Below, in pieces: positions 554-39,390 of a stretch of 64,000 nucleotides of DNA. Position 1 is the stretch's first letter; each line of letters starts with the position of its first letter. Position numbers and translations under genes: made by a program. The stretch is from Acidimicrobiia bacterium (GTDB lineage Bacteria; Actinomycetota; Acidimicrobiia; Spongiisociales; UBA11373): NCBI GenBank assembly GCA_040878325.1, contig JBBDMM010000018.1, positions 83,083-147,082 on the forward strand. Direction: 5' to 3'. The notes below the pieces were generated by a model, which did no database searches, had not been told where the DNA came from, and worked only from the letters and a program-made list of their open reading frames with translations.

Positions 554-569
554 GAGTCTCCAGCCTCCA

Positions 570-675
570 GTCCCCAGTCAAGAGCGTCCTCCTCCGCCGT
601 CCTCGGCGGGGGAGGTGGCGCCGCCGTTTCGGCGGTGACGGAGGGGGCACTGAGACAGCGTGCGGCCCAACGCGG
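570..675. repeat. Copy 1 of dispersed ~95-nt GC-rich multi-hairpin element (+ orientation), 3' of rplS
   Basis: The core aagagcgtcctcctccgccgtcctcggcgggggaggtggcgccgccgtttcggcggtgacggagggggcactgagacagcgtgcgg is shared with copies at 25384, 35752, 35862(rc) and 63191(rc). It contains inverted repeats cctcctccgccg/cggcgggggagg and gccgccg/cggcgg. Confidence 0.55.
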
Positions 676-8054: not shown

Positions 8055-8320
8055 GAAGTCGCCAGTCTCCAGCCTCCAGCCTCCAGCCTAAGAACCGGCT
8101 CCAGCTCCGGCTCCAGCCAGAAAGAACCGGCCTTCCGCCTTCAGCAAGAAGACCTTGGTCCGGGTTTCGCTTTTCGCCTTTCGCATCCTGAATTCCGCCT
8201 CTCGCGAGTCGCACGCTCGCAACTCGCCCACTCTCCACCCGCCGTCGTATCGCGTATCGCGAGTCCCGTATTCAGCATTGCGGGTTGGGGATTGCTGGCC
8301 TCTACACTCCACTCCAATCA
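8055..8320. repeat. Repeat tract phased at 7 nt filling the sigma-rpsB spacer (ccagcct x3, ccggctccagct x2, ttcgctt/ttcgcct, cgcctct cgcgagt cgcacgc...)
   Basis: Seen directly; the 7-nt phase is maintained across about 250 nt. Confidence 0.65.
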
Positions 8321-19306: not shown

Positions 19307-19652
19307 GTTCGTCAAGATCGGATCGCCAGTCGTCTTCCATTCCCCCACCTCACGCAACAGAGGTCAAGACCGATTTGCCACCCATCGCCCTCCGGTGGCG
19401 AGGACTCGGAAGTTGGCCTCGCTGAGGATGTCGATCGTCTGCTCCCTGACGCGTTCCCACGTGTGCCGCAGGGTGCCGCCGACCTCCAGCGATCATCCCT
19501 CGCCGAGTCGGTCGCCGAGGTCTGAAAGCGCTCCCCGGAGAGTCCCCCTTGCGGGAGGCGGGAGGCGTGGCCATGGCCCAAGGCGGCCGGGAGCCGCCAG
19601 AAGGCGGAAGGCCCTCTTGCTGGAGACTGGAGACTTCCTATCCTCGCCTCTC

Positions 19653-25472: not shown

Positions 25473-25575
25473 GCCTTCTCCAGGAACCGGGACAGTCCTG
25501 CTCGCACCGATTGACTTTCTGGCGAATCGCCAATCGCCAATTGCCTTTCGCGCCGAGCAAAGCGAGGCTTCTTCC

Positions 25576-28992: not shown

Positions 28993-30099
28993 TTGACTGG
29001 AGTGGTGTGGCGGGGCACCCTGCCCTCCCCGCCCTTCCCCGGAAGGGGCACCGTGGTCTCTTTGCTGGTGGCCTCCCTGTGGCTGGGTGGCCTGGGTCTC
29101 ACCGAGGGGGAGCAGCCGGTGGTGCCGACCGACACCAGGCCCCCGGCGGAGGAGCCGGCGGTGCCCGCCGGCGACCGTCCAACGAACCCCATCGTTCCCG
29201 CCGCCATCGGGATGGGGGCGATGCTCGGCCTGTTGCTTTCCCGGCGGGAGGGGCCGGGGGCGGCCCTGATGCTGGAGGCACCCGAGGAGAACCTCGTGGT
29301 CTTCGTCCCGGGTCACGGTCACGGTCCGGGCCAGCAGGTGTTCGACGACCTGGTCGACCTGATGGGGATCGACCCCGAGGACGCCCGCTTCTTCGACTAC
29401 CGGCTCGCCGGAGGATGGCCAGATGCAGAGATGGCGTCGCAGCACCTCCCTGTCAGAGACGCCGCCTCGTCCCTCAACTCGTATCTCGATGCGGTGGCTG
29501 AAGAGGGGCGGCCGATCTACCTGGTCGGGTTCAGCAAGGGAGGCGCCACCGTCGCCCACTTGATCGCCGCCTGGGACGACGGGGCGTATGGGCCGAATGA
29601 TTCGGTCACCGGCGCCGCCCTGCTCGACCCCCCGCTGGCGGCGGGATCGCTCGGCTGGGCGCAGAGCGCCGGGCGTTTCTGGGGATCGGTCCCCGACGAC
29701 GGAGGCTACGACCCGGTGCGCTGCGACTTCATCTGGGTCGGGTGCGAGGACGCCCGGGACAACCTCGGCGACGCATCCGGGGTCGACGTGGTGGTCGTTC
29801 GTAATCCCCGCGCGGGGGTGACGTCCTTCTCGGACTTTCCCGAGGCGCTGCGCATCTACAACGCCGTCGACGAGGGGCCAGGGCTCTGGGACCAGCTGTG
29901 GCGCAACCCGTTCGGCCTGCCAGCCCGGATCTCCCAGGCGCATCATGCCGTTCTCGACGACCCGGAGGTGGCCCGGTGCCTGGTCGCAGAGATGTGGGAC
30001 CCCGGATCGTGCGAACTACCCCGCCACGAGCCCTTCCGCTACCCGGTCTGGCGCCAGCCAGTAGCCGCGCGAGCCCATCGAGGGATATGGCCGATCTAG
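28993..30099 (+). CDS. Secreted/membrane-anchored alpha/beta-hydrolase-fold protein (lipase/esterase-like, GFSKGG nucleophile elbow)
   Basis: N-terminal hydrophobic segment [15 protein letters not shown], and a GxSxG motif. An alternative GTG start at 29053 lies just after a small hairpin. Confidence 0.55.
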
Positions 30100-30114
30100 G
30101 TGCAGGCTCGCCTT

Positions 30115-30168
30115 CGGCTTCCGGCATCCGCAAGAAATGCGGCGGCCGGCCCCGAGGAAGCCTTTAGT
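30115..30168 (+). terminator. Terminator-like nested hairpin (ggcttcc...ccgcaagaaatgcgg...ggaagcc) followed by tttagt
   Basis: Inverted repeats seen directly, immediately 3' of the hydrolase gene. Confidence 0.35.
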
Positions 30169-30172
30169 GGCG

Positions 30173-30215
30173 TCGCGCATTGCGCATTGCGCATTGCGCA
30201 TTGCGTATCGCGTTC
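30173..30215. repeat. gcgcatt x4 heptamer tandem repeat (then gcgtatc gcg)
   Basis: Perfect 7-nt tandem copies, seen directly. Confidence 0.8.
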
Positions 30216-30286
30216 GACGGAATGGACCCCCTCGTACGTCTGTTACAGTTCATGTCGCTAGAGGAGTTCTCCTCCAGCGCTTTCCC

Positions 30287-30544
30287 ATGAAAGACACCAA
30301 GACCATCGTCGCCGAGCACGGCAAACACGCCACGGACACGGGTGCGCCCGAGGTCCAGGTGGCGCTGCTCACCGAGAAGATCAATCATCTCACCGAGCAT
30401 CTGAAGGTCCACACCAAGGACCATCACAGCCGCCGTGGTCTCCTGATGATGGTGGGCCAGCGTCGCCGGCTGCTCGACTACCTGCGTAGGCAGGACGTCG
30501 AGCGCTATCGCGACATCATCGCCCGTCTGGGTCTGCGCCGCTGA
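30287..30544 (+). CDS. rpsO: 30S ribosomal protein S15
   Basis: [53 protein letters not shown]. Confidence 0.9.
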
Positions 30545-30697
30545 AATCTCGCCTTTGGGTCGGGTTTCGTGGTTGCATGGGGGGCACAGAATGACGGAGG
30601 GCGGCCTCGTCAGTTGCTAGTTGCCACCCCTCGACACGTATCGAGGCGTGACCACTGGTAATTGACGGCCCGCTCTCCACAACAGAAAAGAGAGAGC

Positions 30698-33133
30698 GTG
30701 TCCGAAGTATCCGCACGCACCACAGTCGGTGCGGTCGAGATCGAGTTCACCACCGGACGGTTGGCCCTTCAGGCCGACGGTGCCGTGGTCGCCAAGGCGG
30801 GGGGAACAGAAATCCTCGCCACCGCAGTCGCCAACCGGCGTCTTCGTGAAGGGGTCGACTTCTTCCCCCTCACCGTCGATGTCGAGGAGCGCATGTATGC
30901 CGCCGGGAAGATCCCCGGGTCGTTCTTCCGCCGTGAAGGCCGTCCCACCGACCGGGCGGTCCTCACCTGCCGCCTCATCGACCGGCCGCTGCGCCCGTCG
31001 TTTCGCGAGGGGTATCGATCTGAGACGCACATCGTCGCCACGATCATGTCGGTCGACGAGGTCAACCCTTATGACGTGATCGCCCTGAATGCGGCCTCGG
31101 CGGCGCTGATGGTCAGCCCGATTCCGTTCGAGGGGCCGATCGCCGCAGTGCGCTTGGCGTACTTGCACGGCGAGTGGATTCCGATGCCGTCGTTCGAGCA
31201 GCTGAATGAGGCGGTCTTCGACCTGGTCGTCGCCGGCAAGCGCAATGCCGAAGGCAACGTGGACATCGCGATGGTGGAAGCGGGGGCAACAGAAAACGCC
31301 CTCCGCTTCATCGAAGATGGCCAGGCGCCCACCGATGAGGCTGCGGTCGCCCGCGGGCTCGAGGAGAGCAAGGCGTACATCGCCGCTCTGCTCGATGCCC
31401 AGATCGAGCTGCGCTCGCAGGTGGAGATCCCCGAGATGGAGTGGCCGGTCGTCACCGACTACTCCGACGAGCTCTACGGCCGCATCGAAACCCTCGCCAA
31501 GGCACGCCTTTCCGAGGTGTACCGGATCGAGGGCAAGCAAGACCGCAACACGGCCGAGGACGAAACCCTCGTCGCGGTGCTGGCCGAGGCCGGCCTCGCC
31601 GAGGGCGACGACGATTTCGGCGCCGCCAAGCGGGCCTTCAAGTCGGTCGCCAAGAAGGTGATGCGCCAGCGCGTTATCGACGATGGCATCCGGCTCGACG
31701 GTCGCGGCATCGGTGATGTCCGTCCGATCGTCGTCGACACCGGGTTGGTGTCGCGGGCCCATGGGTCGGCGCTCTTCCAGCGCGGTGAGACCCAGGTGCT
31801 CAACGTGACAACGGTCGGCATGCTCCGGATGGAGCAGTTGCTCGACACCATCTCGATGGAGGAGAGGAAGCGGTACATGCACCACTACAACTTCCCGCCC
31901 TTCTCCACCGGCGAGGTCGGCTTCATGCGCGGCCCCAAGCGGCGGGAGGTGGGCCACGGGGCCCTGGCCGAGAAGGCGGTCCATCCGATCGTGCCGACGG
32001 CAGACGAGTTCCCCTACGCCTTCCGCCTCGTATCCGAGGTGCTGTCGAGCAACGGGTCGTCGTCGATGGCCTCGGTCTGTGGTTCGAGCCTCTCGCTGAT
32101 GGATGCGGGCGTGCCGGTGAAGGCCGCGGTCGCCGGGGTGGCGATGGGCCTCATCGCCCACGACGGCAACTTCGTGACGCTCACCGACATCCTCGGTGCC
32201 GAGGACGCCCTTGGCGACATGGACTTCAAGGTGGCCGGCACTGCCGACGTCATCACCGCCCTGCAGCTCGACACCAAGATCGAGTCGCTGCCGGCGGAGG
32301 TGCTGTCGCAGGCTCTCGACCAGGCACGGACCGCCCGGCTCCACATCCTCGGTGAGATGAACAAGGTCATCTCGAAGCCGAGGGCGGAGTTGAGCGCCAA
32401 CGCCCCGCGTATCGAGGCGGTGCAGGTGCCCAAGGACAAGCTCGGCGAGATCATCGGCCCCAAGGGCAAGGTCATCCGCGAGATCGAAGAGAAGACCGGT
32501 GCCACGCTCGAGATCGACGACGACGGCACGGTGCGTATCGGCGCAACCGACGGAGAGTCGCTGCAGAAGGCCAAGGACTGGGTGTTGGCGATCGCCTTCC
32601 CGCCCGAGGCCGTGGTCGGCAAGGAGTACGAGGGCGAAGTGGTGAACATCACCAAGTTCGGTGCTTTCGTCAACATCCTGCCGGGCAGGGACGGGCTGCT
32701 GCACATCTCGAAGATCGGCGGCAACAAGCGGATCGACAACGTCGAGGACGTGTACTCGCTGGGTGACAAGGTCCAGGTCGTGGTCCGTGAGATCGACGAC
32801 CGGGGCAAGGTAAGCCTCGACGTCGCCGGCGCCGAGGTTCCCTCGGGCGACGACGACGACAACTCGGCCCCCGAACCGGGCAACAGCGACCGCGGCGAGC
32901 GCGACCGGACCCCCGACCGCGCCCCCCGCGGCGGCCGCGACGGCGCCAGCGGCGGCGGCAGCAGCGATCGTGGCAACCGCGATGGCGGCGCCAGCCGCGA
33001 TCGGGGAAGCCGTGACCGCGGCGGAGACCGCAGCGGCAGCCGGGGAGGCGACCGCAAGCCGGCCGCCGCCCCCGCCGAGAAGCCCGGCCGTTCGGTCGTC
33101 TCCTTCGAAGAGGAGTTCGAAAGCGGGAAGTAG
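30698..33133 (+). CDS. pnp: Polyribonucleotide nucleotidyltransferase (PNPase) with C-terminal RG/SD-rich tail
   Basis: Two RNase PH domains, KH and S1 domains. GTG 30698 after a purine-rich RBS. About 90 aa of GGRDG/SRDRG repeats at the C-terminus. Confidence 0.9.
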   Translation: MSEVSARTTVGAVEIEFTTGRLALQADGAVVAKAGGTEILATAVANRRLREGVDFFPLTVDVEERMYAAGKIPGSFFRREGRPTDRAVLTCRLIDRPLRPSFREGYRSETHIVATIMSVDEVNPYDVIALNAASAALMVSPIPFEGPIAAVRLAYLHGEWIPMPSFEQLNEAVFDLVVAGKRNAEGNVDIAMVEAGATENALRFIEDGQAPTDEAAVARGLEESKAYIAALLDAQIELRSQVEIPEMEWPVVTDYSDELYGRIETLAKARLSEVYRIEGKQDRNTAEDETLVAVLAEAGLAEGDDDFGAAKRAFKSVAKKVMRQRVIDDGIRLDGRGIGDVRPIVVDTGLVSRAHGSALFQRGETQVLNVTTVGMLRMEQLLDTISMEERKRYMHHYNFPPFSTGEVGFMRGPKRREVGHGALAEKAVHPIVPTADEFPYAFRLVSEVLSSNGSSSMASVCGSSLSLMDAGVPVKAAVAGVAMGLIAHDGNFVTLTDILGAEDALGDMDFKVAGTADVITALQLDTKIESLPAEVLSQALDQARTARLHILGEMNKVISKPRAELSANAPRIEAVQVPKDKLGEIIGPKGKVIREIEEKTGATLEIDDDGTVRIGATDGESLQKAKDWVLAIAFPPEAVVGKEYEGEVVNITKFGAFVNILPGRDGLLHISKIGGNKRIDNVEDVYSLGDKVQVVVREIDDRGKVSLDVAGAEVPSGDDDDNSAPEPGNSDRGERDRTPDRAPRGGRDGASGGGSSDRGNRDGGASRDRGSRDRGGDRSGSRGGDRKPAAAPAEKPGRSVVSFEEEFESGK

Positions 33134-33175
33134 CAAGGCGGCCAACGGCCGCCCCGCGATCTGGCGATTAGCCCA

Positions 33176-33217
33176 GAAGCGGTTGGGGTCTTACGGGGTC
33201 CCAACCGCTTCTTTATG
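33176..33217 (+). terminator. Rho-independent terminator of pnp (12-bp perfect stem gaagcggttggg / cccaaccgcttc plus tttat)
   Basis: Perfect inverted repeat followed by a T-tract, 40 nt after the pnp stop. Confidence 0.6.
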
Positions 33218-33261
33218 GGTGACCAGGTCAATTCTTTCGGGCGAAATGCCGATGTGGGGGG

Positions 33262-33453
33262 ATGAAGGTTCGTTCATTCATCGCCTGCTTCCTGATCGTC
33301 ACCGCGTGTGGCGGTGGGGGTGATCCGTCGGTGCCCGCAGGGCAGGACGACGGGCTCATCACCGGAAATGTCGAGCGGTCCCAAGAGGTCGCCGACCAGG
33401 CGAGCGATCGGGAGAGCGAACTCGAACAGATCGTGGAGGACATGGGGGGATAG
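33262..33453 (+). CDS. Hypothetical small lipoprotein (signal peptide plus LIVTAC lipobox, acidic mature part)
   Basis: 63-aa ORF in a locally lower-GC segment. MKVRSFIACFLIVTACGGGG. Confidence 0.35.
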   Translation: MKVRSFIACFLIVTACGGGGDPSVPAGQDDGLITGNVERSQEVADQASDRESELEQIVEDMGG

Positions 33454-33454
33454 C

Positions 33455-33577
33455 CCCCAGCCTCCATCCTCCAGCAAGAGGCGCGCTAGTCGGGTTCTGC
33501 CTTTCGCTCTTCGCCTTTCGCATCCCATAAGGCGCTCTGTCGCGGTGCGCATCGCGCATCGCGCATTGCATTGCGCA
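33455..33577. repeat. Repeat tract phased at 7 nt (ccagcct/ccatcct, ttcgctc ttcgcct ttcgcat, gcgcatc gcgcatc gcgcatt gcattgc gcatcga)
   Basis: Seen directly. Confidence 0.6.
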
Positions 33578-33593
33578 TCGAACATATGTTCGG
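33578..33593 (+). promoter_or_regulatory. LexA operator (actinobacterial/Cheo-type SOS box TCGAAC-ATAT-GTTCGG), followed by a TAAGAT -10-like hexamer
   Basis: Perfect CGAAC-N4-GTTCG palindrome 10 nt upstream of the imuA' start. Established consensus for Gram-positive/actinobacterial LexA. Confidence 0.6.
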
Positions 33594-33602
33594 TAAGATC
33601 GA

Positions 33603-34265
33603 GTGCCCTTGGACCGGGCATCTCTTCTCCTCGCCGGCGCAACAAGTGCCCCTTCTCACGAACCGGCCGCGCCCTTCGCCATCCAGGCAGAGCCCGGCCG
33701 GGTGCTCGGCCTGGTGGGGCCCGCCGGTTTTGGGCTCACCCGTCTCGGCCTGAGCCTGCTCGCCGCCCCTTCCCTCACCGGGATGGTCGCCGTGGTCGAT
33801 GTCCGGGGCTGGTTGTGCCCGGTGGCCGCCTGGGAGGTGGGGGTCGACCCCGAGCGGCTGGTGATGGTTCGCTGCCCCGATCGTCGGGCATGGCGGCAGG
33901 TCACCGCTTCCCTCCTCGAAGGCTTTCCCGTCGTCTTCGCCGAAGTGCCCGTGGGCACCGCTGAGGCCGACCTGCGTCGCCTCGCCGCCCTGTCACGGGC
34001 GCGGCGGGCGGCATTGCTGCTTCGCCCGGTTTCGGGTGACCTCCCTGCCGGAGTGCTCCATCTGCGGATCGAGGCGACGGCGGTCCGTTGGGAGGGGGTG
34101 GACCGCGGCCATGGCGCCCTGCTGCGGCGCCACCTCACCCTGCTCGCCTCGGGCAAGGGGGCTCGGGGCATCGAGCGGGTAGTGGAGATGGAGGACGATG
34201 GCACGCACGCTGTGCGTCTGGTTCCCGGACTGGCCGTTGCGCCGTCCGGACTCGCCGCCGGATAG
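33603..34265 (+). CDS. ImuA'-like (RecA-fold/SulA-like) mutasome accessory protein
   Basis: About 220 aa with a degenerate P-loop-like GLVGPAGFGLTRLGL. It lies immediately upstream of, and overlapping, an ImuB-like gene and downstream of a LexA box. The start (GTG 33603) would make the transcript near-leaderless. Confidence 0.55.
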   Translation: MPLDRASLLLAGATSAPSHEPAAPFAIQAEPGRVLGLVGPAGFGLTRLGLSLLAAPSLTGMVAVVDVRGWLCPVAAWEVGVDPERLVMVRCPDRRAWRQVTASLLEGFPVVFAEVPVGTAEADLRRLAALSRARRAALLLRPVSGDLPAGVLHLRIEATAVRWEGVDRGHGALLRRHLTLLASGKGARGIERVVEMEDDGTHAVRLVPGLAVAPSGLAAG

Positions 34266-35658
34266 GCCCTGCCAGGTCGTCGACGACAAGGGGATGGTGG
34301 TGGCGGCCACCGCCGATGCCGTCGACGCCGGGGTCCGCACCGGCATGCGTCGTCGCGAGGCGGAGGCGCTCTGTCCCAATGCGGTCACCCTCGTGGCCGA
34401 CCCCGGCGCCGAGGCGGTGGCCTTCGAGCCGGTGGCCGTTGCCATCGAAGCCGTGGTGCCCCGGATGGAGTTGGCTGCCCCCGGCCTGGTGTTCGTGCCC
34501 GCCGCCGGGGCAGTCCACTACTACGGGTCCGAGGATGCTCTGGTGGGGAAGATGGTGGCGGCGGTGGAGGCGATGGCGCCAGGGGGCCGCTTCGGACTGG
34601 CCGACGGGCCTTTCGCCGCCCGGCTGGCCGCCGAGGCTGCAGTAGAGGAGCCCCTGATCGTCGTCGACACCGCCGCCTTCCTCGCCGGGCTGGATGTCGC
34701 CACCCTGGGGGCGGACGATCTGGTCGCCACCTTCCGGTGGTTGGGAGTAGGCACCCTCGGAGACCTCGCCTCCCTGCCCCGCGCCGCCATCGCCTCCCGA
34801 TTCGGGCCGATCGGATTGGATGCCCACCGCATCGCCAGCGGGGAGGATCGTCCGGTCGAGCCGCGACGGATCGGCGAAGAGATCGCGGTGGAAGAGGTCT
34901 TCGAGCATCCACTCGAGGACTTCGAGCGGGCATCGTTCGCGGCCCGGGGGCTGGCGGGGAGGCTCCTCGAGGCGGTGGCGCCCACCGGGGGGATGCCCCA
35001 CCGGGTGGAGGTGGAGGCCGAGTCGGCCCTGGGGGAGCTGCGCACCCGCACCTGGCGGAGTGCCCATCCGTTCTCCGAAGCGGAACTGGCCGAGCGGGTC
35101 CGGTGGCAGATCAGGGCGTGGATCGAATCGGGCGGGGTGCCCGGGGGGATCATCCGGATCCGCTTGGCCCCCGCCGACCTGTCCGACCTCGGTCGGCAAC
35201 TCAAACTGGGGGAGGACGCCGCCTCCGAGGATGATGCCCGCCGGGCCCTCAGCCGGGCCCAGGGGCTGATCGGCCCCGACGCGGTGCTCCAGGCGATGCC
35301 CCAAGGAGGACGCGACCCGGGGGAGCGGGTCCACTGGTACCGATGGGGCGAACCGCCGGGCGCCGAGGCGCGGGACCCGAAGGCCCCCTGGCCGGGAAGG
35401 CTGTCCCAGCCCTCACCCGCCCTGGTGCCCCCCGACCCGCGGCCCTTCGAAGTCGAATGGGAAGACGGCTTCCCCACCAGGGTCCGCCTGGGGAGCCGCT
35501 GGGAGCCGGTCCTCGGCTGGGCCGGCCCCTGGCGCCGGACCGGCAAGTGGTGGGAAGGTGAGCCCGCCGCCGACCGCTATCAGATCGTCACCTCCGCCGG
35601 CGCCTTCCTGTGCGAGGTGAGGGAAGAGAGGTGTTGGTTGGTGGGGGTGTATGACTAG
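34198..35658 (+). CDS. imuB: ImuB-like Y-family DNA polymerase paralogue (catalytically inactive type)
   Basis: N-terminus MARTLCVWFPDWPLRR is the hallmark ImuB/DinB-fold start. The palm/fingers region is alignable to Y-family polymerases. The gene overlaps imuA' by 68 nt. Confidence 0.75.
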   Translation: MARTLCVWFPDWPLRRPDSPPDRPCQVVDDKGMVVAATADAVDAGVRTGMRRREAEALCPNAVTLVADPGAEAVAFEPVAVAIEAVVPRMELAAPGLVFVPAAGAVHYYGSEDALVGKMVAAVEAMAPGGRFGLADGPFAARLAAEAAVEEPLIVVDTAAFLAGLDVATLGADDLVATFRWLGVGTLGDLASLPRAAIASRFGPIGLDAHRIASGEDRPVEPRRIGEEIAVEEVFEHPLEDFERASFAARGLAGRLLEAVAPTGGMPHRVEVEAESALGELRTRTWRSAHPFSEAELAERVRWQIRAWIESGGVPGGIIRIRLAPADLSDLGRQLKLGEDAASEDDARRALSRAQGLIGPDAVLQAMPQGGRDPGERVHWYRWGEPPGAEARDPKAPWPGRLSQPSPALVPPDPRPFEVEWEDGFPTRVRLGSRWEPVLGWAGPWRRTGKWWEGEPAADRYQIVTSAGAFLCEVREERCWLVGVYD

Positions 35659-35745
35659 CGGCCGCCTTCGGCGGCCAGGCGATTGGCGATTGGCGATTGG
35701 CAAGAAAGAAGAGAAGAGTCTTATCTCCTCCCGGAACCCGGAGGA
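35659..35745. repeat. Repeat tract phased at 7 nt (ggcgatt x3, then aagaaga gaagagt cttatct)
   Basis: Seen directly. Confidence 0.7.
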
Positions 35746-35751
35746 GATAAG

Positions 35752-35847
35752 AAGAGCGTCCTCCTCCGTCGTCTTCGACGGGGGAGGTGGCGCCGCCGTC
35801 TTCGGCGGTGACGGAGGGGGCGGCGGAGACAGCGGGCGGTCGGACGA
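35752..35847. repeat. Copy 3 of the ~95-nt GC-rich hairpin element (+ orientation), 3' of imuB
   Basis: aagagcgtcctcctccgtcgtcttcgacgggggaggtggcgccgccgtcttcggcggtgacggagggggcggcggagacagcgggcggtcggacgac; about 90% identical to the copy at 570. Confidence 0.6.
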
Positions 35848-35861
35848 CTTCTTCAAGAACC

Positions 35862-35948
35862 GGGTCCAGTCCCTCTCGCAGGGTCAGCCGCCCCCCCTCC
35901 CCCCTTCGGGGTACTCCCCCCGGAAGCCGGAGGGAGACGTCGGGAAGG
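35862..35948. repeat. Copy 4 of the element in - orientation (3' of recQ), forming an inverted pair with copy 3
   Basis: ctcgcagggtcagccgcccc...ccggaagccggagggag; its reverse complement contains ccggcttccgggggga, matching the 25384 copy, and the 5' end matches the 63191 copy. Confidence 0.5.
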
Positions 35949-35968
35949 TGAGGTCCTCGTGCTTCTCG

Positions 35969-37630
35969 CTAATCGCCCAGCACCTCCAGGAACGCCTCCC
36001 CATACGACTCGAGTTTCATCGGGCCTACCCCGCTGACTTCGAGCAACTCGGATCTCGATTGCGGTCTCCGGGCGACCATGTCTCTCAGGGTGGCGTCACT
36101 GAAGATCACATACGCGGGAACGCCTCGTTTGTCGGCGAGTTGCTTGCGAAGTTCGCGGAGGCGGTTGAACAACGGGTCGTCGGCTACTCCCGCTTTGACG
36201 TTCCTCGCCGCGCGTTGGTCCTTCTTGGTGGTCACATCGAGAGTCGATCCCCGGCACGAGTCGCACGAGTCGTCGCACTGGTCGATCGTCTCGCCGAAGT
36301 AGCCGACCAGATTGCGCCAGCGGCAGCGGGGATTCTCCGCCCAGTGGTACATCCGGCGGATCTGCTCGCTGCGCAGGTCGGCGCCGGCCTCGCCCGCCCA
36401 GAGGCGTTCCCGGCCGATCACGTCGGACCACGAGTAGAAGAGCACGCAGTCGCTGGGCAGTCCGTCCCGTCCCGCCCGGCCGATCTCCTGGTAGTACGAC
36501 TCGACCGACGCCGGCATGTCGCGGTGGATCACGAAGCGGATGTTCGACTTGTCGATCCCCATCCCGAAGGCCACGGTGGCGCACACCACCCCCACCTCGT
36601 CGCGGATGAAGGCGTCCTGCACGCGGGTGCGGTCATCCGACGACATCCCGGCGTGATAGGCGAGTGCGGGGACGCCCTGCTTGCGGAGGTAGTCGGCGGT
36701 CGACTCGGCCGCCTTGCGTGACAGGGTGTACACGATGCCGCTCTCGCCCTTCCGGTCCTTGCAGATCTGTCCGATCGCACTGCGCGTGTTCACCTTCTTG
36801 CCGTCGGGCTGTTCACCCTTCTTGACGACGTGGAGGTTCAGGTTGGGGCGGAAGAAGGAGCCCCGCAGCATCAGCGGATCCTCCAACCCGAGTTGGTCGA
36901 CGATGTCGCGGGTGACCTCGGCGGTGGCGGTGGCGGTGAGGGCGAGCACCGGGACGCCGAACCGGCCCTTCAACCCGCGCAGATTGCGATAGGACGGGCG
37001 GAAGTCGTGGCCCCACTGGCTGATGCAGTGCGCCTCGTCGACGGCGATGAGCCGCAGGTCGACCCCTTCGAGGGCGGCGCCCACCGAGGCGTCGATCCCT
37101 TCCGGGGCGGCGTACACCAACTCGTACTCGCCCCGACGCATGCGGTCGACCCGCTGCCGCCGTTCCTCCGGTTCGAGGCTGGAGTTGAGGAAGGTCGCCC
37201 GCATCCCCACCTCGTCCAACCCATCGACCTGGTCCTTCATCAGCGCGATCAGCGGAGAGATCACCAGGGTGGTCCCGCCGAGCAGCCGGGCGGTCAGTTG
37301 AAAGGTGAGCGACTTACCGGCGCCGGTCGGCATGATCCCGATGCAGTCGCGGCCGATGAGCAGGGCGGAGATGATCTCCCGCTGGCCAGGCCGAAACTCG
37401 GAGAATCCGAAGACTTCCCGGAGGGCGGCGTCGAGGTCGTCGCTGATCGTCGATTGGAGTTGTGCGCCGACCTGGCGCAGCCGGGCGATGGAGTCGGGCG
37501 TGAAGTCCTCAGGCTGGTCCTGCCATCGGGCTCGCAATGCAGCGAGCTCGCGACGGGCGCTCGCCGGGTCGCGCGTTGCGAGCGCACCGAGGCCCGTGAT
37601 CCGGTCGGTGAGTTCGGCGGGCTCGGTCAT
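35969..37630 (-). CDS. recQ: ATP-dependent DNA helicase RecQ (helicase, RQC zinc motif, HRDC domain)
   Basis: [57 protein letters not shown], and a C-terminal [18 protein letters not shown]. Confidence 0.9.
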
Positions 37631-37764
37631 CGGAAGGGACGGTACCTTCCGACACCGTCACAGCATCCGGCTCGCCGAGGACGTTGCCCAGGTAGCCTCC
37701 GATTCGTGGCCCACAGCCTTACGTTGTTGCTCCTCCCCGGGCGGGTGCGTCGCCCCATGGCCCG

Positions 37765-39390
37765 ATGAGATTGGAGCGGCAGGGCACCTCGGCGCGCCGG
37801 GCCGCCTTCAACCGGGTGGCCGGCCACGGCGGGCTGCGGCGGACGCTGCTTGCCTACCTCGCCTTCTGCAGCGTCGAGTTCGCCGCCTGGGTGGCCGTCC
37901 TCGTCTACGCCATGTCGGAGGGCGATGCCACGACGGTGGCGATCGTGGCCGTCGTGCAGCTCGTTCCGGCTGCGCTGCTCGCCCCCGTGCTCGCCTCACG
38001 GCTGGATCGCATCCGTCGCGGCGCCGTGCTCCGGGTTGCGTACGGTGCGGTCACGGTGCTGCTGGCCGCCACCGCCGTGGCGATGCTGGTCGGCCTTGCC
38101 CTCCCGGTCGTCGTGGGCATGTCGATGCTGGCGACTGTCGTGATCGCCATGGGTCGCCCCGCCCACTTCAGCATCGTTCCCCGTCTCGTCGACGAACCCG
38201 AGGACCTGGTGGCGGCCAACGTCGTCTCCACCTCTGCCGATGCCATGGGCACTCTCCTCGGGCCCGGCATGGCCGGTCTGATCATGGCGCTGGCGTCGCC
38301 CGGATTCGCCGTGTTGGCGAGCGCCGTCTTGATGGCGTTTGGTGTGGCGATCATCGTGTCCTTGCGGATACCCGACGACGACTCTTCCGCTGGGACATCG
38401 GGGGACCGGCTTTCGGAACTGGTCGACGACGAGCCGACCACTCGTGTGGCCACCCCCATCCTCATCGGCGCGATGTTGGGAGTCATCGCCGGGGCCAGCG
38501 ACGTCCTCATCGTCGTACTCGCTCTCGACATACTGGCGCTCGGCGACGCCGGCGCCGGCTACCTCAACGCCGCGTTGGGTCTTGGGGGCGTGCTCGGCAG
38601 CGTCGTGGCGGCCTCGCTGGTAGGGGCGAAGAGGTTGGGCCCCGCTCTGGTCCTCGGGGCGGCTGTTGCCGCCACTGCGATGGCCCTGATCTCCGTGGTT
38701 CCAGTTGCCCCATTGCTGATCGGAGTGCTGGGTCTCGGGTATTCGGTGGCCGAGGTCGCCAATCGCACGCTGCTCCAGCGGACCGCTCCGATGAGAGGCC
38801 TGGGAGCCGCCTTCGGGCGACTCGAAGGGGCCATGCTCATCGGCCTCGCGCTGGGGTCGATGACCTCCCCCTTTGTGATCGACCGCGTCGGTGGCGAGGG
38901 AGCGTTCGGCGTCTTCGGGCTCCTGTTCTTCGTGGTCGTCGTCAGGCGGTGGGGCAGCCTCCGCCGCGCCGACGCCTCGTTCGAGGTGCCAATGAGGGTG
39001 CTCGAGATCCTGCGGGGGGCGACCATGTTCGCTCCGCTTGCTCCGCCGATGATCGAGCGTCTCGCCCGAGGCGGCCGCCTGATGACGGTTGCCGCCGGCA
39101 CGGCGATTCTGACCCAGGGTGAGCAGAGCACGGAGATGTATGTGATCGGTGATGGCGTGGTGTCGATAGTGCGAGACGGTGCGGAGTTGCGGTCCCTCGA
39201 AACCGGCGACGTGTTCGGGGAGATCGCCTTGCTCACCGACGCCCCCCGGAATGCCACGGTGGTGGCAACCGTCCCGACCACCGTGGTTCGCCTCGAGCGG
39301 GAAGTCGTGATGGAAGCATTGGCCGCCAACCGCGGCAGCCGACGGGCGTTGGGCCGTCTGGCGGCATCGCGGATGACTCGGGGCAACTGA
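37765..39390 (+). CDS. MFS-type transporter fused to a C-terminal cyclic-nucleotide-binding (CAP effector) domain
   Basis: About 12 predicted TM helices across 400 aa, then GDVFGEIALLTDAPRNATVVA, which is the typical cNMP-binding beta-roll signature. Confidence 0.7.
   Translation: MRLERQGTSARRAAFNRVAGHGGLRRTLLAYLAFCSVEFAAWVAVLVYAMSEGDATTVAIVAVVQLVPAALLAPVLASRLDRIRRGAVLRVAYGAVTVLLAATAVAMLVGLALPVVVGMSMLATVVIAMGRPAHFSIVPRLVDEPEDLVAANVVSTSADAMGTLLGPGMAGLIMALASPGFAVLASAVLMAFGVAIIVSLRIPDDDSSAGTSGDRLSELVDDEPTTRVATPILIGAMLGVIAGASDVLIVVLALDILALGDAGAGYLNAALGLGGVLGSVVAASLVGAKRLGPALVLGAAVAATAMALISVVPVAPLLIGVLGLGYSVAEVANRTLLQRTAPMRGLGAAFGRLEGAMLIGLALGSMTSPFVIDRVGGEGAFGVFGLLFFVVVVRRWGSLRRADASFEVPMRVLEILRGATMFAPLAPPMIERLARGGRLMTVAAGTAILTQGEQSTEMYVIGDGVVSIVRDGAELRSLETGDVFGEIALLTDAPRNATVVATVPTTVVRLEREVVMEALAANRGSRRALGRLAASRMTRGN

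What the first reader, a model, noticed from the sequence alone, without database searches (positions are those of the whole stretch)
33578..35658. LexA-box-controlled imuA'-imuB cassette without an adjacent dnaE2
A perfect Cheo-type SOS box TCGAAC-ATAT-GTTCGG lies 10 nt upstream of a small RecA-fold-like gene. That gene overlaps an ORF beginning MARTLCVWFPDWPL, the hallmark ImuB N-terminus. In the canonical actinobacterial mutasome the error-prone polymerase dnaE2 follows imuB or lies elsewhere. Here the cassette ends in the hairpin-element pair and faces recQ. The spacing implies a near-leaderless imuA' transcript.
Basis: partly seen in the sequence, partly recalled or inferred. Interest (0 to 1): 0.5.

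Follow-up and report, generated by a model that had tools for sequence, protein, structure and literature searches.

The report
SOS-controlled imuA'-imuB mutagenesis operon
This is an ordinary DNA-damage-inducible operon for two helper proteins of an error-prone DNA polymerase, laid out in an uncultured Acidimicrobiia bacterium much as it is in Mycobacterium tuberculosis, so it adds a new member to a well-known system and no new biology.

Summary
TCGAACATATGTTCGG (33578-33593) is the only perfect CGAAC-N4-GTTCG site in the 64 kb. It fills the 17-bp spacer between a -35-like TTGCGC and a -10 TAAGAT. The 220-aa ORF passes NCBIfam's ImuA' model (67 bits, cutoff 65) and has a RecA core with Walker A GKT changed to GLT. 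The 486-aa ORF is a Y-family homologue lacking the catalytic Asp/Glu, which makes it ImuB. The two genes overlap by 68 nt. No dnaE2 lies in the window. All 62 orthologous Acidimicrobiia loci with enough upstream flank keep the box and the flanking TAnnnT. In 20 of 37 loci with at least 9 kb of downstream flank, dnaE2 lies 4.7-9.7 kb downstream behind its own identical box. It is never adjacent to imuB. [quoted passage not shown] Near-leaderless expression is plausible here, but the true start codon (GTG 33603 or TTG 33609) is unresolved. Whether this genome encodes dnaE2 and lexA could not be checked. Verdict: real, correctly interpreted, ordinary; a new member of a known kind with low interest.

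The parts
33571..33576 (+). -35-like hexamer TTGCGC, formed by the last unit of a GCGCAT(C/T) heptamer array
   Evidence: A TTGnnn hexamer sits 17-18 bp upstream of the -10 in most orthologous loci. Nucleotide homology with L001, L002 and L003 begins at 33570-33571.
33578..33593 (.). SOS (LexA) box TCGAACATATGTTCGG, which fills the promoter spacer
   Evidence: It is the only perfect CGAAC-N4-GTTCG in 64 kb. It is conserved in 62 of 62 orthologous loci. The same box precedes dnaE2 in 20 related loci. It matches the mycobacterial LexA consensus TCGAAC(N4)GTTCGA (PMC3381160).
33594..33599 (+). -10 hexamer TAAGAT; its TAA is in frame with imuA' and closes the ORF upstream
   Evidence: A TAnnnT hexamer lies 0-1 nt after the box in 62 of 62 loci. 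The stop-to-stop ORF begins at 33597.
33603..34265 (+). imuA' (220 aa from GTG 33603, or 218 aa from the invariant TTG 33609): a RecA-fold, ATPase-dead accessory protein
   Evidence: NF058630 scores 67.0 bits against a cutoff of 65, and 37 of 37 orthologues hit it. The RecA P-loop alignment shows GPESSGKT changed to GPAGFGLT.
34198..35658 (+). imuB (486 aa): a catalytically dead Y-family polymerase homologue, with QLKLG at residues 334-338 as a candidate clamp-binding motif and a conserved C-terminal domain
   Evidence: Pfam IMS scores 35.4 bits against a cutoff of 23.2. Pol IV D103/E104 align with G96/L97. It aligns with 32 orthologues, including alphaproteobacterial imuB genes that lie upstream of dnaE2.
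34198..34265 (+). 68-nt overlap of the imuA' 3' end with the imuB 5' end, in different reading frames
   Evidence: The same 68-nt overlap occurs in most Acidimicrobiia loci but not in the L050/L052/L055 clade, so the ImuA' tail is probably dispensable.
35660..35676 (+). GC-rich hairpin GGCCGCC-UUC-GGCGGCC two bases after the imuB stop codon; candidate terminator without a U-tract
   Evidence: Minimum-free-energy fold. Nucleotide homology with relatives ends at the imuB stop codon.
35678..35701 (.). heptamer tandem array (GGCGATT x 3.4)
   Evidence: Arrays with different units (GCAATTG, ATCTCAG) sit at the same position in L003 and L002.
35719..35825 (.). three further strong hairpins (35719-35752, 35757-35789, 35791-35825); the first is terminator-like on the minus strand
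   Evidence: I10; z = -5.9.
35969..37630 (-). recQ, the convergent neighbour; context only, not part of the cassette
   Evidence: TIGR00614 scores 442 bits, and Pfam finds DEAD, Helicase_C, RecQ_Zn_bind and HRDC. recQ is absent from the fetched flanks of all related loci.

Best explanation
A LexA-repressed housekeeping-type promoter drives a two-gene imuA'-imuB operon. The 16-bp SOS box occupies the whole spacer between the -35 (TTGCGC) and the -10 (TAAGAT). A bound LexA dimer would therefore block RNA polymerase.

After DNA damage, RecA-stimulated LexA self-cleavage would free the promoter. Transcription is predicted to begin about 33605-33607. That leaves little or no leader before the imuA' start codon (TTG 33609 or GTG 33603). 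imuB is translated from an ATG inside the 3' end of imuA'.

ImuA' is a RecA-fold protein without a Walker A lysine. ImuB is a Y-family homologue without catalytic carboxylates that serves as a hub binding the beta clamp. Together they are accessory subunits that bring the error-prone polymerase DnaE2 (ImuC) to stalled forks for translesion synthesis and induced mutagenesis. DnaE2 is expected to be encoded elsewhere in this genome behind its own SOS box, giving a 'split' cassette as in mycobacteria.

Shown here:
- the sequence features;
- the family memberships;
- conservation of the box and promoter;
- the separate, box-bearing dnaE2 in related genomes.

Inferred:
- LexA binding;
- damage induction;
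- the transcription and translation start sites;
- the protein interactions;
- the presence of dnaE2 and lexA in this genome.
For: **Box and promoter**
- The box is unique in the window.
- It is conserved in 62 of 62 orthologous loci, with TAnnnT immediately 3' and TTGnnn 17-18 bp upstream.
- The nucleotide block conserved between the window and L001, L002, L003 and L063 runs from the -35 (33570) to the imuB stop (35658). Both flanks are unrelated.

**Proteins**
- ImuA' passes NF058630 above its cutoff, as do 37 of 37 orthologues. It has RecA-core homology with GKT changed to GLT.
- ImuB has a Pfam IMS hit and G96/L97 in place of Pol IV D103/E104. Its N-terminus, QLxL motif and C-terminal domain are conserved and shared with alphaproteobacterial ImuB.

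**dnaE2 in relatives**
- dnaE2 was identified with NF004225 at 1247-1265 bits against a cutoff of 939.
- It has an identical box followed by a -10 in all 20 related loci where it is seen.

**Literature**
- Split imuA'-imuB/dnaE2 cassette; ImuB as a catalytically dead hub with clamp motif QLPLWG (PMC10421592, PMC6511836).
- Rv3395c is the strongest LexA ChIP-seq peak, the consensus is TCGAAC(N4)GTTCGA, and the TSS lies 7 bp before the start codon (PMC3381160).
Against: - No lexA, recA or dnaE2 lies in the 64 kb. The source genome could not be traced, so the regulator and the catalytic partner are assumed for this genome.
- The -35 matches TTGACA at only 3 of 6 positions, and the generic promoter scan did not call the site.
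- GTG 33603 lies only 3 nt after the -10, too close for a canonical TSS. The alternative, TTG 33609, is a weak codon for leaderless initiation.
- The candidate clamp motif QLKLG lacks the aromatic residue of the mycobacterial QLPLWG.
- There are no expression or binding data.
Confidence: 0.9

Rival explanations
1. This lineage has lost dnaE2. ImuA'-ImuB would then act without it, for example by handing the clamp to another polymerase such as DnaE1 or DinB, or by acting as a damage-induced brake on replication.
For: There is no dnaE2 in the 64 kb. There is none within 10 kb downstream in the nearest relatives that have flank: L063, L011 and L013.
Against: In 20 of 37 class members with sufficient flank, dnaE2 is present with the same SOS box. 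Absence from a 10-64 kb neighbourhood is what a split cassette predicts; in M. tuberculosis, Rv3370c and Rv3395c have separate LexA peaks about 27 kb apart (PMC3381160, Table 1). Both imuA' and imuB are intact and well conserved. The two papers read here treat imuA/imuA'-imuB and dnaE2 as parts of a single cassette (PMC6511836, PMC10421592); that imuB and dnaE2 always co-occur across genomes is my recollection of the literature and was not checked here.
Confidence: 0.05
2. The palindrome is not a LexA operator. It would be a site for another regulator, or simply a conserved promoter spacer.
For: No lexA lies in the window and there are no binding data. One-mismatch copies are over-represented in the window (15 sites including the perfect box, against about 3-4 expected), which shows that composition and codon effects favour the half-site.
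Against: The site matches the experimentally defined actinobacterial LexA consensus at 15 of 16 positions (PMC3381160). It is invariant in the half-sites and variable in N4 across 62 loci. It also precedes dnaE2, the other canonical SOS mutagenesis gene. Most of the one-mismatch sites lie inside called genes, and 13 of the 14 lose one of the four A/T positions of the half-sites.
Confidence: 0.03
3. The pair is a SulA-like division inhibitor plus an active DinB-type translesion polymerase, not ImuA'/ImuB.
For: ImuB gives weak hits to DinB (Pol IV) models. Three of the 37 ImuA' orthologues also touch the ImuA model.
Against: The DinB model scores are 26-46 bits against cutoffs of 256-399. The catalytic D103/E104 equivalents are G and L. 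The ImuA' model is passed above its cutoff. The C-terminal domain is shared with bona fide imuB genes that lie next to dnaE2.
Confidence: 0.02

Closest known systems
Mycobacterial split mutasome cassette imuA'-imuB (Rv3395c-Rv3394c) / dnaE2 (Rv3370c)
   Same: Both have a two-gene imuA'-imuB operon, with ImuA' rather than ImuA. Both carry a TCGAAC-N4-GTTCGA-type SOS box at the promoter and have a very short 5' leader. In both, dnaE2 is unlinked and has its own SOS box. ImuB lacks catalytic residues and has a QLxL motif after the polymerase-like region (PMC3381160, PMC10421592, PMC6511836).
   Different: The host is an uncultured Acidimicrobiia bacterium. Here the box sits wholly in the -35/-10 spacer, so the predicted TSS is downstream of the box; in M. 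tuberculosis the TSS lies within the box. The genes overlap by 68 nt. The candidate clamp motif is QLKLG, not QLPLWG. A PafBC or RecA-NDp second layer of control was not looked for.
Proteobacterial imuA-imuB-dnaE2 (imuABC) cassette, for example in Caulobacter, Pseudomonas and Maricaulis
   Same: ImuB is homologous along its full length at 28-33% identity. The cassette is LexA-associated and has the same presumed function (PMC6511836).
   Different: In those organisms dnaE2 follows imuB directly in one operon (L072-L080). The first gene is ImuA (NF033429), not ImuA'. The LexA box has a different sequence.
E. coli umuDC (Pol V)
   Same: Both are SOS-repressed operons for damage-induced mutagenesis that pair a Y-family protein with a RecA-related partner. 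This is a functional analogy made in PMC6511836.
   Different: UmuC is catalytically active, whereas ImuB is not. There is no UmuD homologue here. Catalysis is delegated to a C-family polymerase.

Membership tests
ImuA' (NCBIfam NF058630, Rv3395c-like) | Score above the curated model cutoff | tested here: met
   The window protein scores 67.0 bits against a cutoff of 65, E = 1.5e-18. All 37 orthologues hit the model, with a best E-value of 1.4e-20. The margin over the cutoff is small for the window protein itself.
ImuA' (NCBIfam NF058630, Rv3395c-like) | RecA-like core with a degenerate ATPase site | tested here: met
   Residues 31-93 align to RecA 59-121, and GPESSGKT becomes GPAGFGLT. The orthologue profile hits RecA chains at E about 1e-4, and L45 (the residue replacing the lysine) is conserved in at least 90% of 37 sequences.
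ImuA' (NCBIfam NF058630, Rv3395c-like) | Encoded immediately upstream of imuB, on the same strand, in one operon | tested here: met
   The genes overlap by 68 nt with no room for an internal promoter or terminator. Co-transcription itself is inferred.
ImuA' (NCBIfam NF058630, Rv3395c-like) | Physical interaction with the ImuB C-terminal region | not testable with these tools
   This needs a pull-down or two-hybrid experiment. Complex structure prediction was not attempted.
ImuB | Y-family polymerase homology | tested here: met
   Pfam IMS (PF00817) scores 35.4 bits against a cutoff of 23.2. Residues 30-240 align to E. coli Pol IV structures at E = 7e-6.
ImuB | Loss of the catalytic carboxylates | tested here: met
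   Pol IV D103/E104 align with G96/L97. By eye, Pol IV D8/D10 in VDMD correspond to W8/P10 in the invariant CVWFPDWPL; this second point is inference.
ImuB | Beta-clamp-binding motif after the polymerase-like region | tested here: inconclusive
   QLKLG at 334-338 lies within a conserved GRQLxL stretch. M. tuberculosis has 352-QLPLWG-357 (PMC10421592). The Q-L-x-L positions are kept but the aromatic position is not. Binding was not tested.
ImuB | Conserved C-terminal extension (RecA-NT-like motif plus ImuB-C) | tested here: met
   The C-terminal 150 residues or so are conserved across the class and alignable to Maricaulis and Hyphomonas ImuB up to the terminal ...GVYD / ...GLFA. The RecA-NT motif was not delineated separately.
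ImuB | Co-occurrence with dnaE2 (imuC) in the genome | not testable with these tools
   dnaE2 is absent from the 64-kb window, and the genome could not be traced. It is present in 20 related Acidimicrobiia loci.
LexA/SOS regulon (Gram-positive/actinobacterial box) | Palindrome matching TCGAAC-N4-GTTCGA | tested here: met
   The site matches at 15 of 16 positions, and at 14 of 14 in the CGAAC-N4-GTTCG core. The consensus is taken from PMC3381160.
LexA/SOS regulon (Gram-positive/actinobacterial box) | Operator overlaps the core promoter | tested here: met
   The box fills the 17-bp spacer between TTGCGC and TAAGAT. The architecture is conserved in 62 loci. The promoter itself is predicted and has not been mapped.
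LexA/SOS regulon (Gram-positive/actinobacterial box) | Box conserved at orthologous loci and shared with other SOS genes | tested here: met
   It is found upstream of imuA' in 62 of 62 loci and upstream of dnaE2 in 20 of 20.
LexA/SOS regulon (Gram-positive/actinobacterial box) | LexA encoded in the genome, binding the site, with damage-inducible expression | not testable with these tools
   No S24-peptidase GDSM motif was found in a plausible ORF in the window. There are no genome, binding or expression data.

The most novel reading that the evidence does not exclude
The organism may have no dnaE2 at all. The SOS-controlled ImuA'-ImuB pair would then work with a different polymerase or have a polymerase-independent role at the clamp. 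That would break the imuB-dnaE2 co-occurrence that I recall being reported as general (not checked in the papers read here).
Probability: 0.05. Interest if true: 0.55.

Novelty: new member of a known kind. Interest (0 to 1): 0.15.

Why it matters
Little hinges on this finding. It shows that the mycobacterial design extends across the deep-branching actinobacterial class Acidimicrobiia with striking conservation of promoter and operator. That design has four parts: an SOS box in the promoter, a near-leaderless imuA', an imuA'-imuB operon, and an unlinked dnaE2 with its own box. The practical uses are in annotation. The 220-aa gene should be named imuA', the 486-aa gene imuB, and the imuA' start codon should be reconsidered. 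The site can also seed a LexA-regulon motif for this class. It opens no long-standing question.

Tried and rejected
- **Tracing the source genome.** Exact-sequence look-ups of the window's ImuB and RecQ, meant to find dnaE2 and lexA, both returned 'not on record'.
- **RNA families.** An Rfam scan of 29900-38000 gave one sub-threshold chance hit and nothing at the leader or the hairpins.
- **Generic promoter scan.** It found no promoter in 33100-36100 because the -35 matches TTGACA at only 3 of 6 positions. The comparative alignment was more informative.
- **Long ORF next to imuB in L030.** I first suspected an adjacent dnaE2, but it has no DnaE2 similarity.
- **Other boxes in the window.** The 14 one-mismatch sites and two GAAC-N4-GTTC cores were examined as possible further SOS boxes. 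Most lie inside called genes and none sits in a recognisable promoter.
- **Alternative imuA' starts.** Translation from GTG 33702 or 33714 was rejected. Relatives L003, L005 and L008 have no start codon there, and the preceding residues (PL-RASLLAGA) are conserved at the protein level.
- **A 5' RNA hairpin.** The short inverted repeat TGCCC-N7-GGGCA at 33604-33620 was considered. It would be truncated by the predicted TSS and coincides with conserved codons, so I did not pursue it.
- **Literature gaps.** Erill et al. 2006 is not in the held library and is cited only through PMC10421592. A search on heptanucleotide repeats was uninformative.
Full report
**Observation**

Reading 33300-36200 shows TCGAACATATGTTCGG at 33578-33593. 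It is followed directly by TAAGAT (33594-33599), then CGA, then GTG at 33603. The GTG opens a 220-aa ORF that ends at 34265. An ATG at 34198 opens a 486-aa ORF beginning MARTLCVWFPDWPL and ending at 35658, so the two genes overlap by 68 nt.

The site is the only perfect CGAAC-N4-GTTCG in the window. The other two GAAC-N4-GTTC cores lie inside ispG (16405) and an aminotransferase gene (56157). One perfect site in 64 kb is only mildly improbable on its own; I estimate about 0.07 expected from base composition. Its position and its conservation make it significant.

**Identity of the two proteins**

The 220-aa protein passes the curated cutoff of NCBIfam NF058630, 'DnaE2-dependent mutagenesis accessory factor ImuA'', at 67.0 bits against 65.
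- Its residues 31-93 align with the RecA P-loop region, and RecA's GPESSGKT is replaced by GPAGFGLT.
- I collected 36 orthologues from related loci and aligned them (A1).
- All 37 sequences hit NF058630.
- Their profile finds RecA chains in the PDB at about 1e-4.
- The leucine that replaces the Walker A lysine is nearly invariant.

The 486-aa protein passes Pfam IMS at 35.4 bits against 23.2.
- It aligns to E. coli Pol IV over residues 30-240, where the catalytic D103/E104 correspond to G96/L97.
- DinB models are missed by hundreds of bits.
- Its N-terminus CVWFPDWPL, a GRQLxL stretch (QLKLG at 334-338) and its C-terminal domain are conserved across the class.
- The same features are shared with Maricaulis and Hyphomonas imuB genes. 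Those genes are followed directly by an ORF scoring 1451 bits on the error-prone polymerase model NF004225.

These are ImuA' and ImuB.

**Organism and surroundings**

The closest loci are Acidimicrobiia MAGs. L001 reaches 96% amino-acid identity for ImuB.

The window carries a housekeeping stretch:
- cdsA, ispG, proS, infB, a DHH phosphoesterase, truB, rpsO and pnp;
- a 63-aa lipoprotein-like ORF (33262-33453);
- the cassette;
- a convergent recQ;
- an MFS/cNMP-domain gene, a small ORF overlapping a PIN-domain gene, and a NERD nuclease gene.

No ORF of 900 aa or more exists in the window. tblastn with an Acidimicrobiia DnaE2 finds nothing.

**Conservation of the operator and promoter**

Every orthologous locus with enough upstream flank (62 of 62) has a perfect CGAAC-N4-GTTCG about 500-850 nt upstream of imuB. 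The four loci without a box all have fewer than 600 nt of upstream sequence.
- In all 62, a TAnnnT hexamer starts 0-1 nt after the 16-mer.
- In most, TTGnnn lies 17-18 bp upstream of that hexamer.
- The box is therefore the promoter spacer, a classic repressor-occlusion layout.
- In the window the elements are TTGCGC (33571-33576), the box, and TAAGAT.

Nucleotide homology between the window and L001, L002, L003 and L063 starts at 33570-33577 and stops at the imuB stop codon, 35656-35658. In L003 it runs about 50 nt further, to 35708. Both flanks are unrelated, and L001 even has an extra 0.8 kb upstream holding what looks like a toxin-antitoxin pair on the minus strand (read by eye, not scanned). 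The unit under selection is therefore -35, operator, -10, imuA' and imuB.

**Leader and start codon**

The TAA of TAAGAT is in frame with imuA', so the ORF cannot extend further upstream. The only start codons conserved in the window's clade are [G/T]TG, 3 nt after the -10 (33603), and an invariant TTG, 9 nt after it (33609).
- The next candidate, GTG 33702, is missing in L003, L005 and L008.
- The residues before it (PL-RASLLAGA) are conserved at the protein level.
- A canonical TSS 6-8 nt after the -10 would fall at 33605-33607. That is inside or just past the GTG and 2-4 nt before the TTG.

Other clades show three geometries:
- ATG 6-7 nt after the -10, which is truly leaderless geometry (L050-L057);
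- GTG or ATG 9-10 nt after it (L012, L026, L046 and others);
- a leader that places the start 23-29 nt after the -10, preceded by a GGAG Shine-Dalgarno sequence (L009, L017 and others).

I favour TTG 33609 slightly, by analogy with the 9-10-nt class, but this is unresolved. In M. tuberculosis the Rv3395c transcript starts 7 bp before the start codon (PMC3381160), so even this detail has precedent.

**dnaE2**

In related Acidimicrobiia, an ORF of 1100-1160 aa scoring 1247-1265 bits on NF004225 (cutoff 939) lies 4.7-9.7 kb downstream of imuB on the same strand. This holds in 20 of 37 loci with at least 9 kb of downstream flank.
- Each copy is preceded by its own box (consensus TCGAACATATGTTCGA, N4 variable). 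In most loci a TAGTAT- or TAGAAT-like -10 follows it; in the L050/L055-L057 clade the coding sequence begins within a few bases of the box.
- In the other 17 loci, including the window's nearest relatives with flank (L063, L011, L013), none lies within 10 kb.
- In no Acidimicrobiia locus is dnaE2 adjacent to imuB.

Absence of an adjacent dnaE2 is therefore the rule for the class, and the shared box marks the two units as one regulon. Whether this particular genome has dnaE2 and lexA could not be tested.

**Downstream end**

The 310 nt between imuB and recQ fold far better than shuffles (z = -5.9). The structures are hairpins at 35660-35676, 35719-35752, 35757-35789 and 35791-35825, plus a GGCGATT heptamer array at 35678-35701.
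- The first hairpin, two bases after the stop codon, is the likely imuB terminator, although it has no U-tract.
- The 35719-35752 hairpin has a T-run on the minus strand.

**Comparison with what is known**

The literature describes exactly this arrangement.
- A LexA-regulated imuA-imuB-dnaE2 cassette is widespread.
- Mycobacteria have a 'split' imuA'-imuB/dnaE2 version.
- ImuB is a catalytically dead hub that binds the beta clamp through QLPLWG and binds ImuA' and DnaE2 through its C-terminal region.
- ImuA' is a RecA homologue without ATPase motifs (PMC10421592, PMC6511836).
- In M. tuberculosis, Rv3395c is the strongest LexA ChIP-seq peak, dnaE2 has its own perfect box, and the consensus is TCGAAC(N4)GTTCGA (PMC3381160).

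The window differs only in details:
- the host class;
- the operator lying wholly within the spacer;
- the 68-nt gene overlap;
- QLKLG instead of QLPLWG;
- a -35 formed by a heptamer repeat.

**Verdict**

The feature is a new member of a known kind. Interest is low (0.15). The only reading that would raise it, a genome truly lacking dnaE2, is unlikely (about 5%) and needs the full genome.

Noticed in passing
window 555-579, 677-722, 1492-1636, 2721-2749, 8062-8261, 19551-19635, 25525-25545, 30175-30205, 33452-33578, 35678-35701: About 19 short tandem arrays of period 7 (3-5 copies, many different units such as GCGCATT, GGCGATT, CGCAATT, AGCCTCC) sit in intergenic regions. In a stricter count of my own, period 7 was the only period between 5 and 12 with a clear excess over shuffles (5 arrays against 0; period 6 gave 1 against 0). 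Close relatives carry arrays at the same position just after imuB but with different units (L003 GCAATTG, L002 ATCTCAG, L005 AATGCGC). L001 lacks the array that abuts the imuA' promoter in the window. From memory, this resembles cyanobacterial STRR heptamer repeats. I know of no description for Acidimicrobiia, and a literature search was uninformative.
   Followed up: partly
L001-L004, L006, L008, L010, L016, L042, L059, L067 (3' ends of contigs): Eleven related MAG contigs end within 0-275 nt after the imuB stop codon. This suggests that repeat and hairpin elements downstream of imuB break short-read assemblies at this point.
   Followed up: partly
window 35892-35937; L001 11502-11543: A G/C-rich hairpin element (CCCCCCCTCCCCCCTTCGGGGTACTCCCCCCGG) lies near the recQ 3' end. 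It recurs in inverted orientation downstream of imuB in L001 at 87% identity. There it sits between two mutually inverted hexamer arrays (CCAGCC... / GCTGGA...), which looks like a small mobile or REP-like element.
   Followed up: no
window-wide: 14 sites such as 3606, 9624, 43997, 50439: CGAAC-N4-GTTCG with at most one mismatch occurs 15 times, counting the perfect box. About 3.75 are expected from dinucleotide shuffles, and the mean is 2.7 for the 30 permuted half-site palindromes. Thirteen of the 14 imperfect sites lose one of the four A/T positions, and most lie inside called genes. This is probably a codon-context effect (G-TTC-G around the favoured Phe codon), not a set of weak operators.
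   Followed up: partly
window 34198-34265 and orthologous loci: The ImuA' C-terminal tail (...DDGTHAVRLVPGLAVAPSGLAAG) is encoded entirely within the first 22 codons of imuB in another frame. The 68-nt overlap is kept in most of the class. The L050/L052/L055 clade ends ImuA' before imuB and lacks the tail, so the tail may be a by-product of the conserved imuB N-terminus.
   Followed up: partly
window 33262-33453 (+): A 63-aa ORF with a signal peptide and a lipobox-like LIVTAC motif lies between pnp and the cassette. It is conserved at 74-83% nucleotide identity in L001 and L002. It is not part of the cassette.
   Followed up: no
L001 8561-8668 and 8700-9260: Between pnp and imuA', L001 carries a 57-nt direct duplication and what looks like a small toxin-antitoxin gene pair on the minus strand. 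Both are absent from the window, which shows that the flank just upstream of the conserved promoter is a hotspot for insertions.
   Followed up: no
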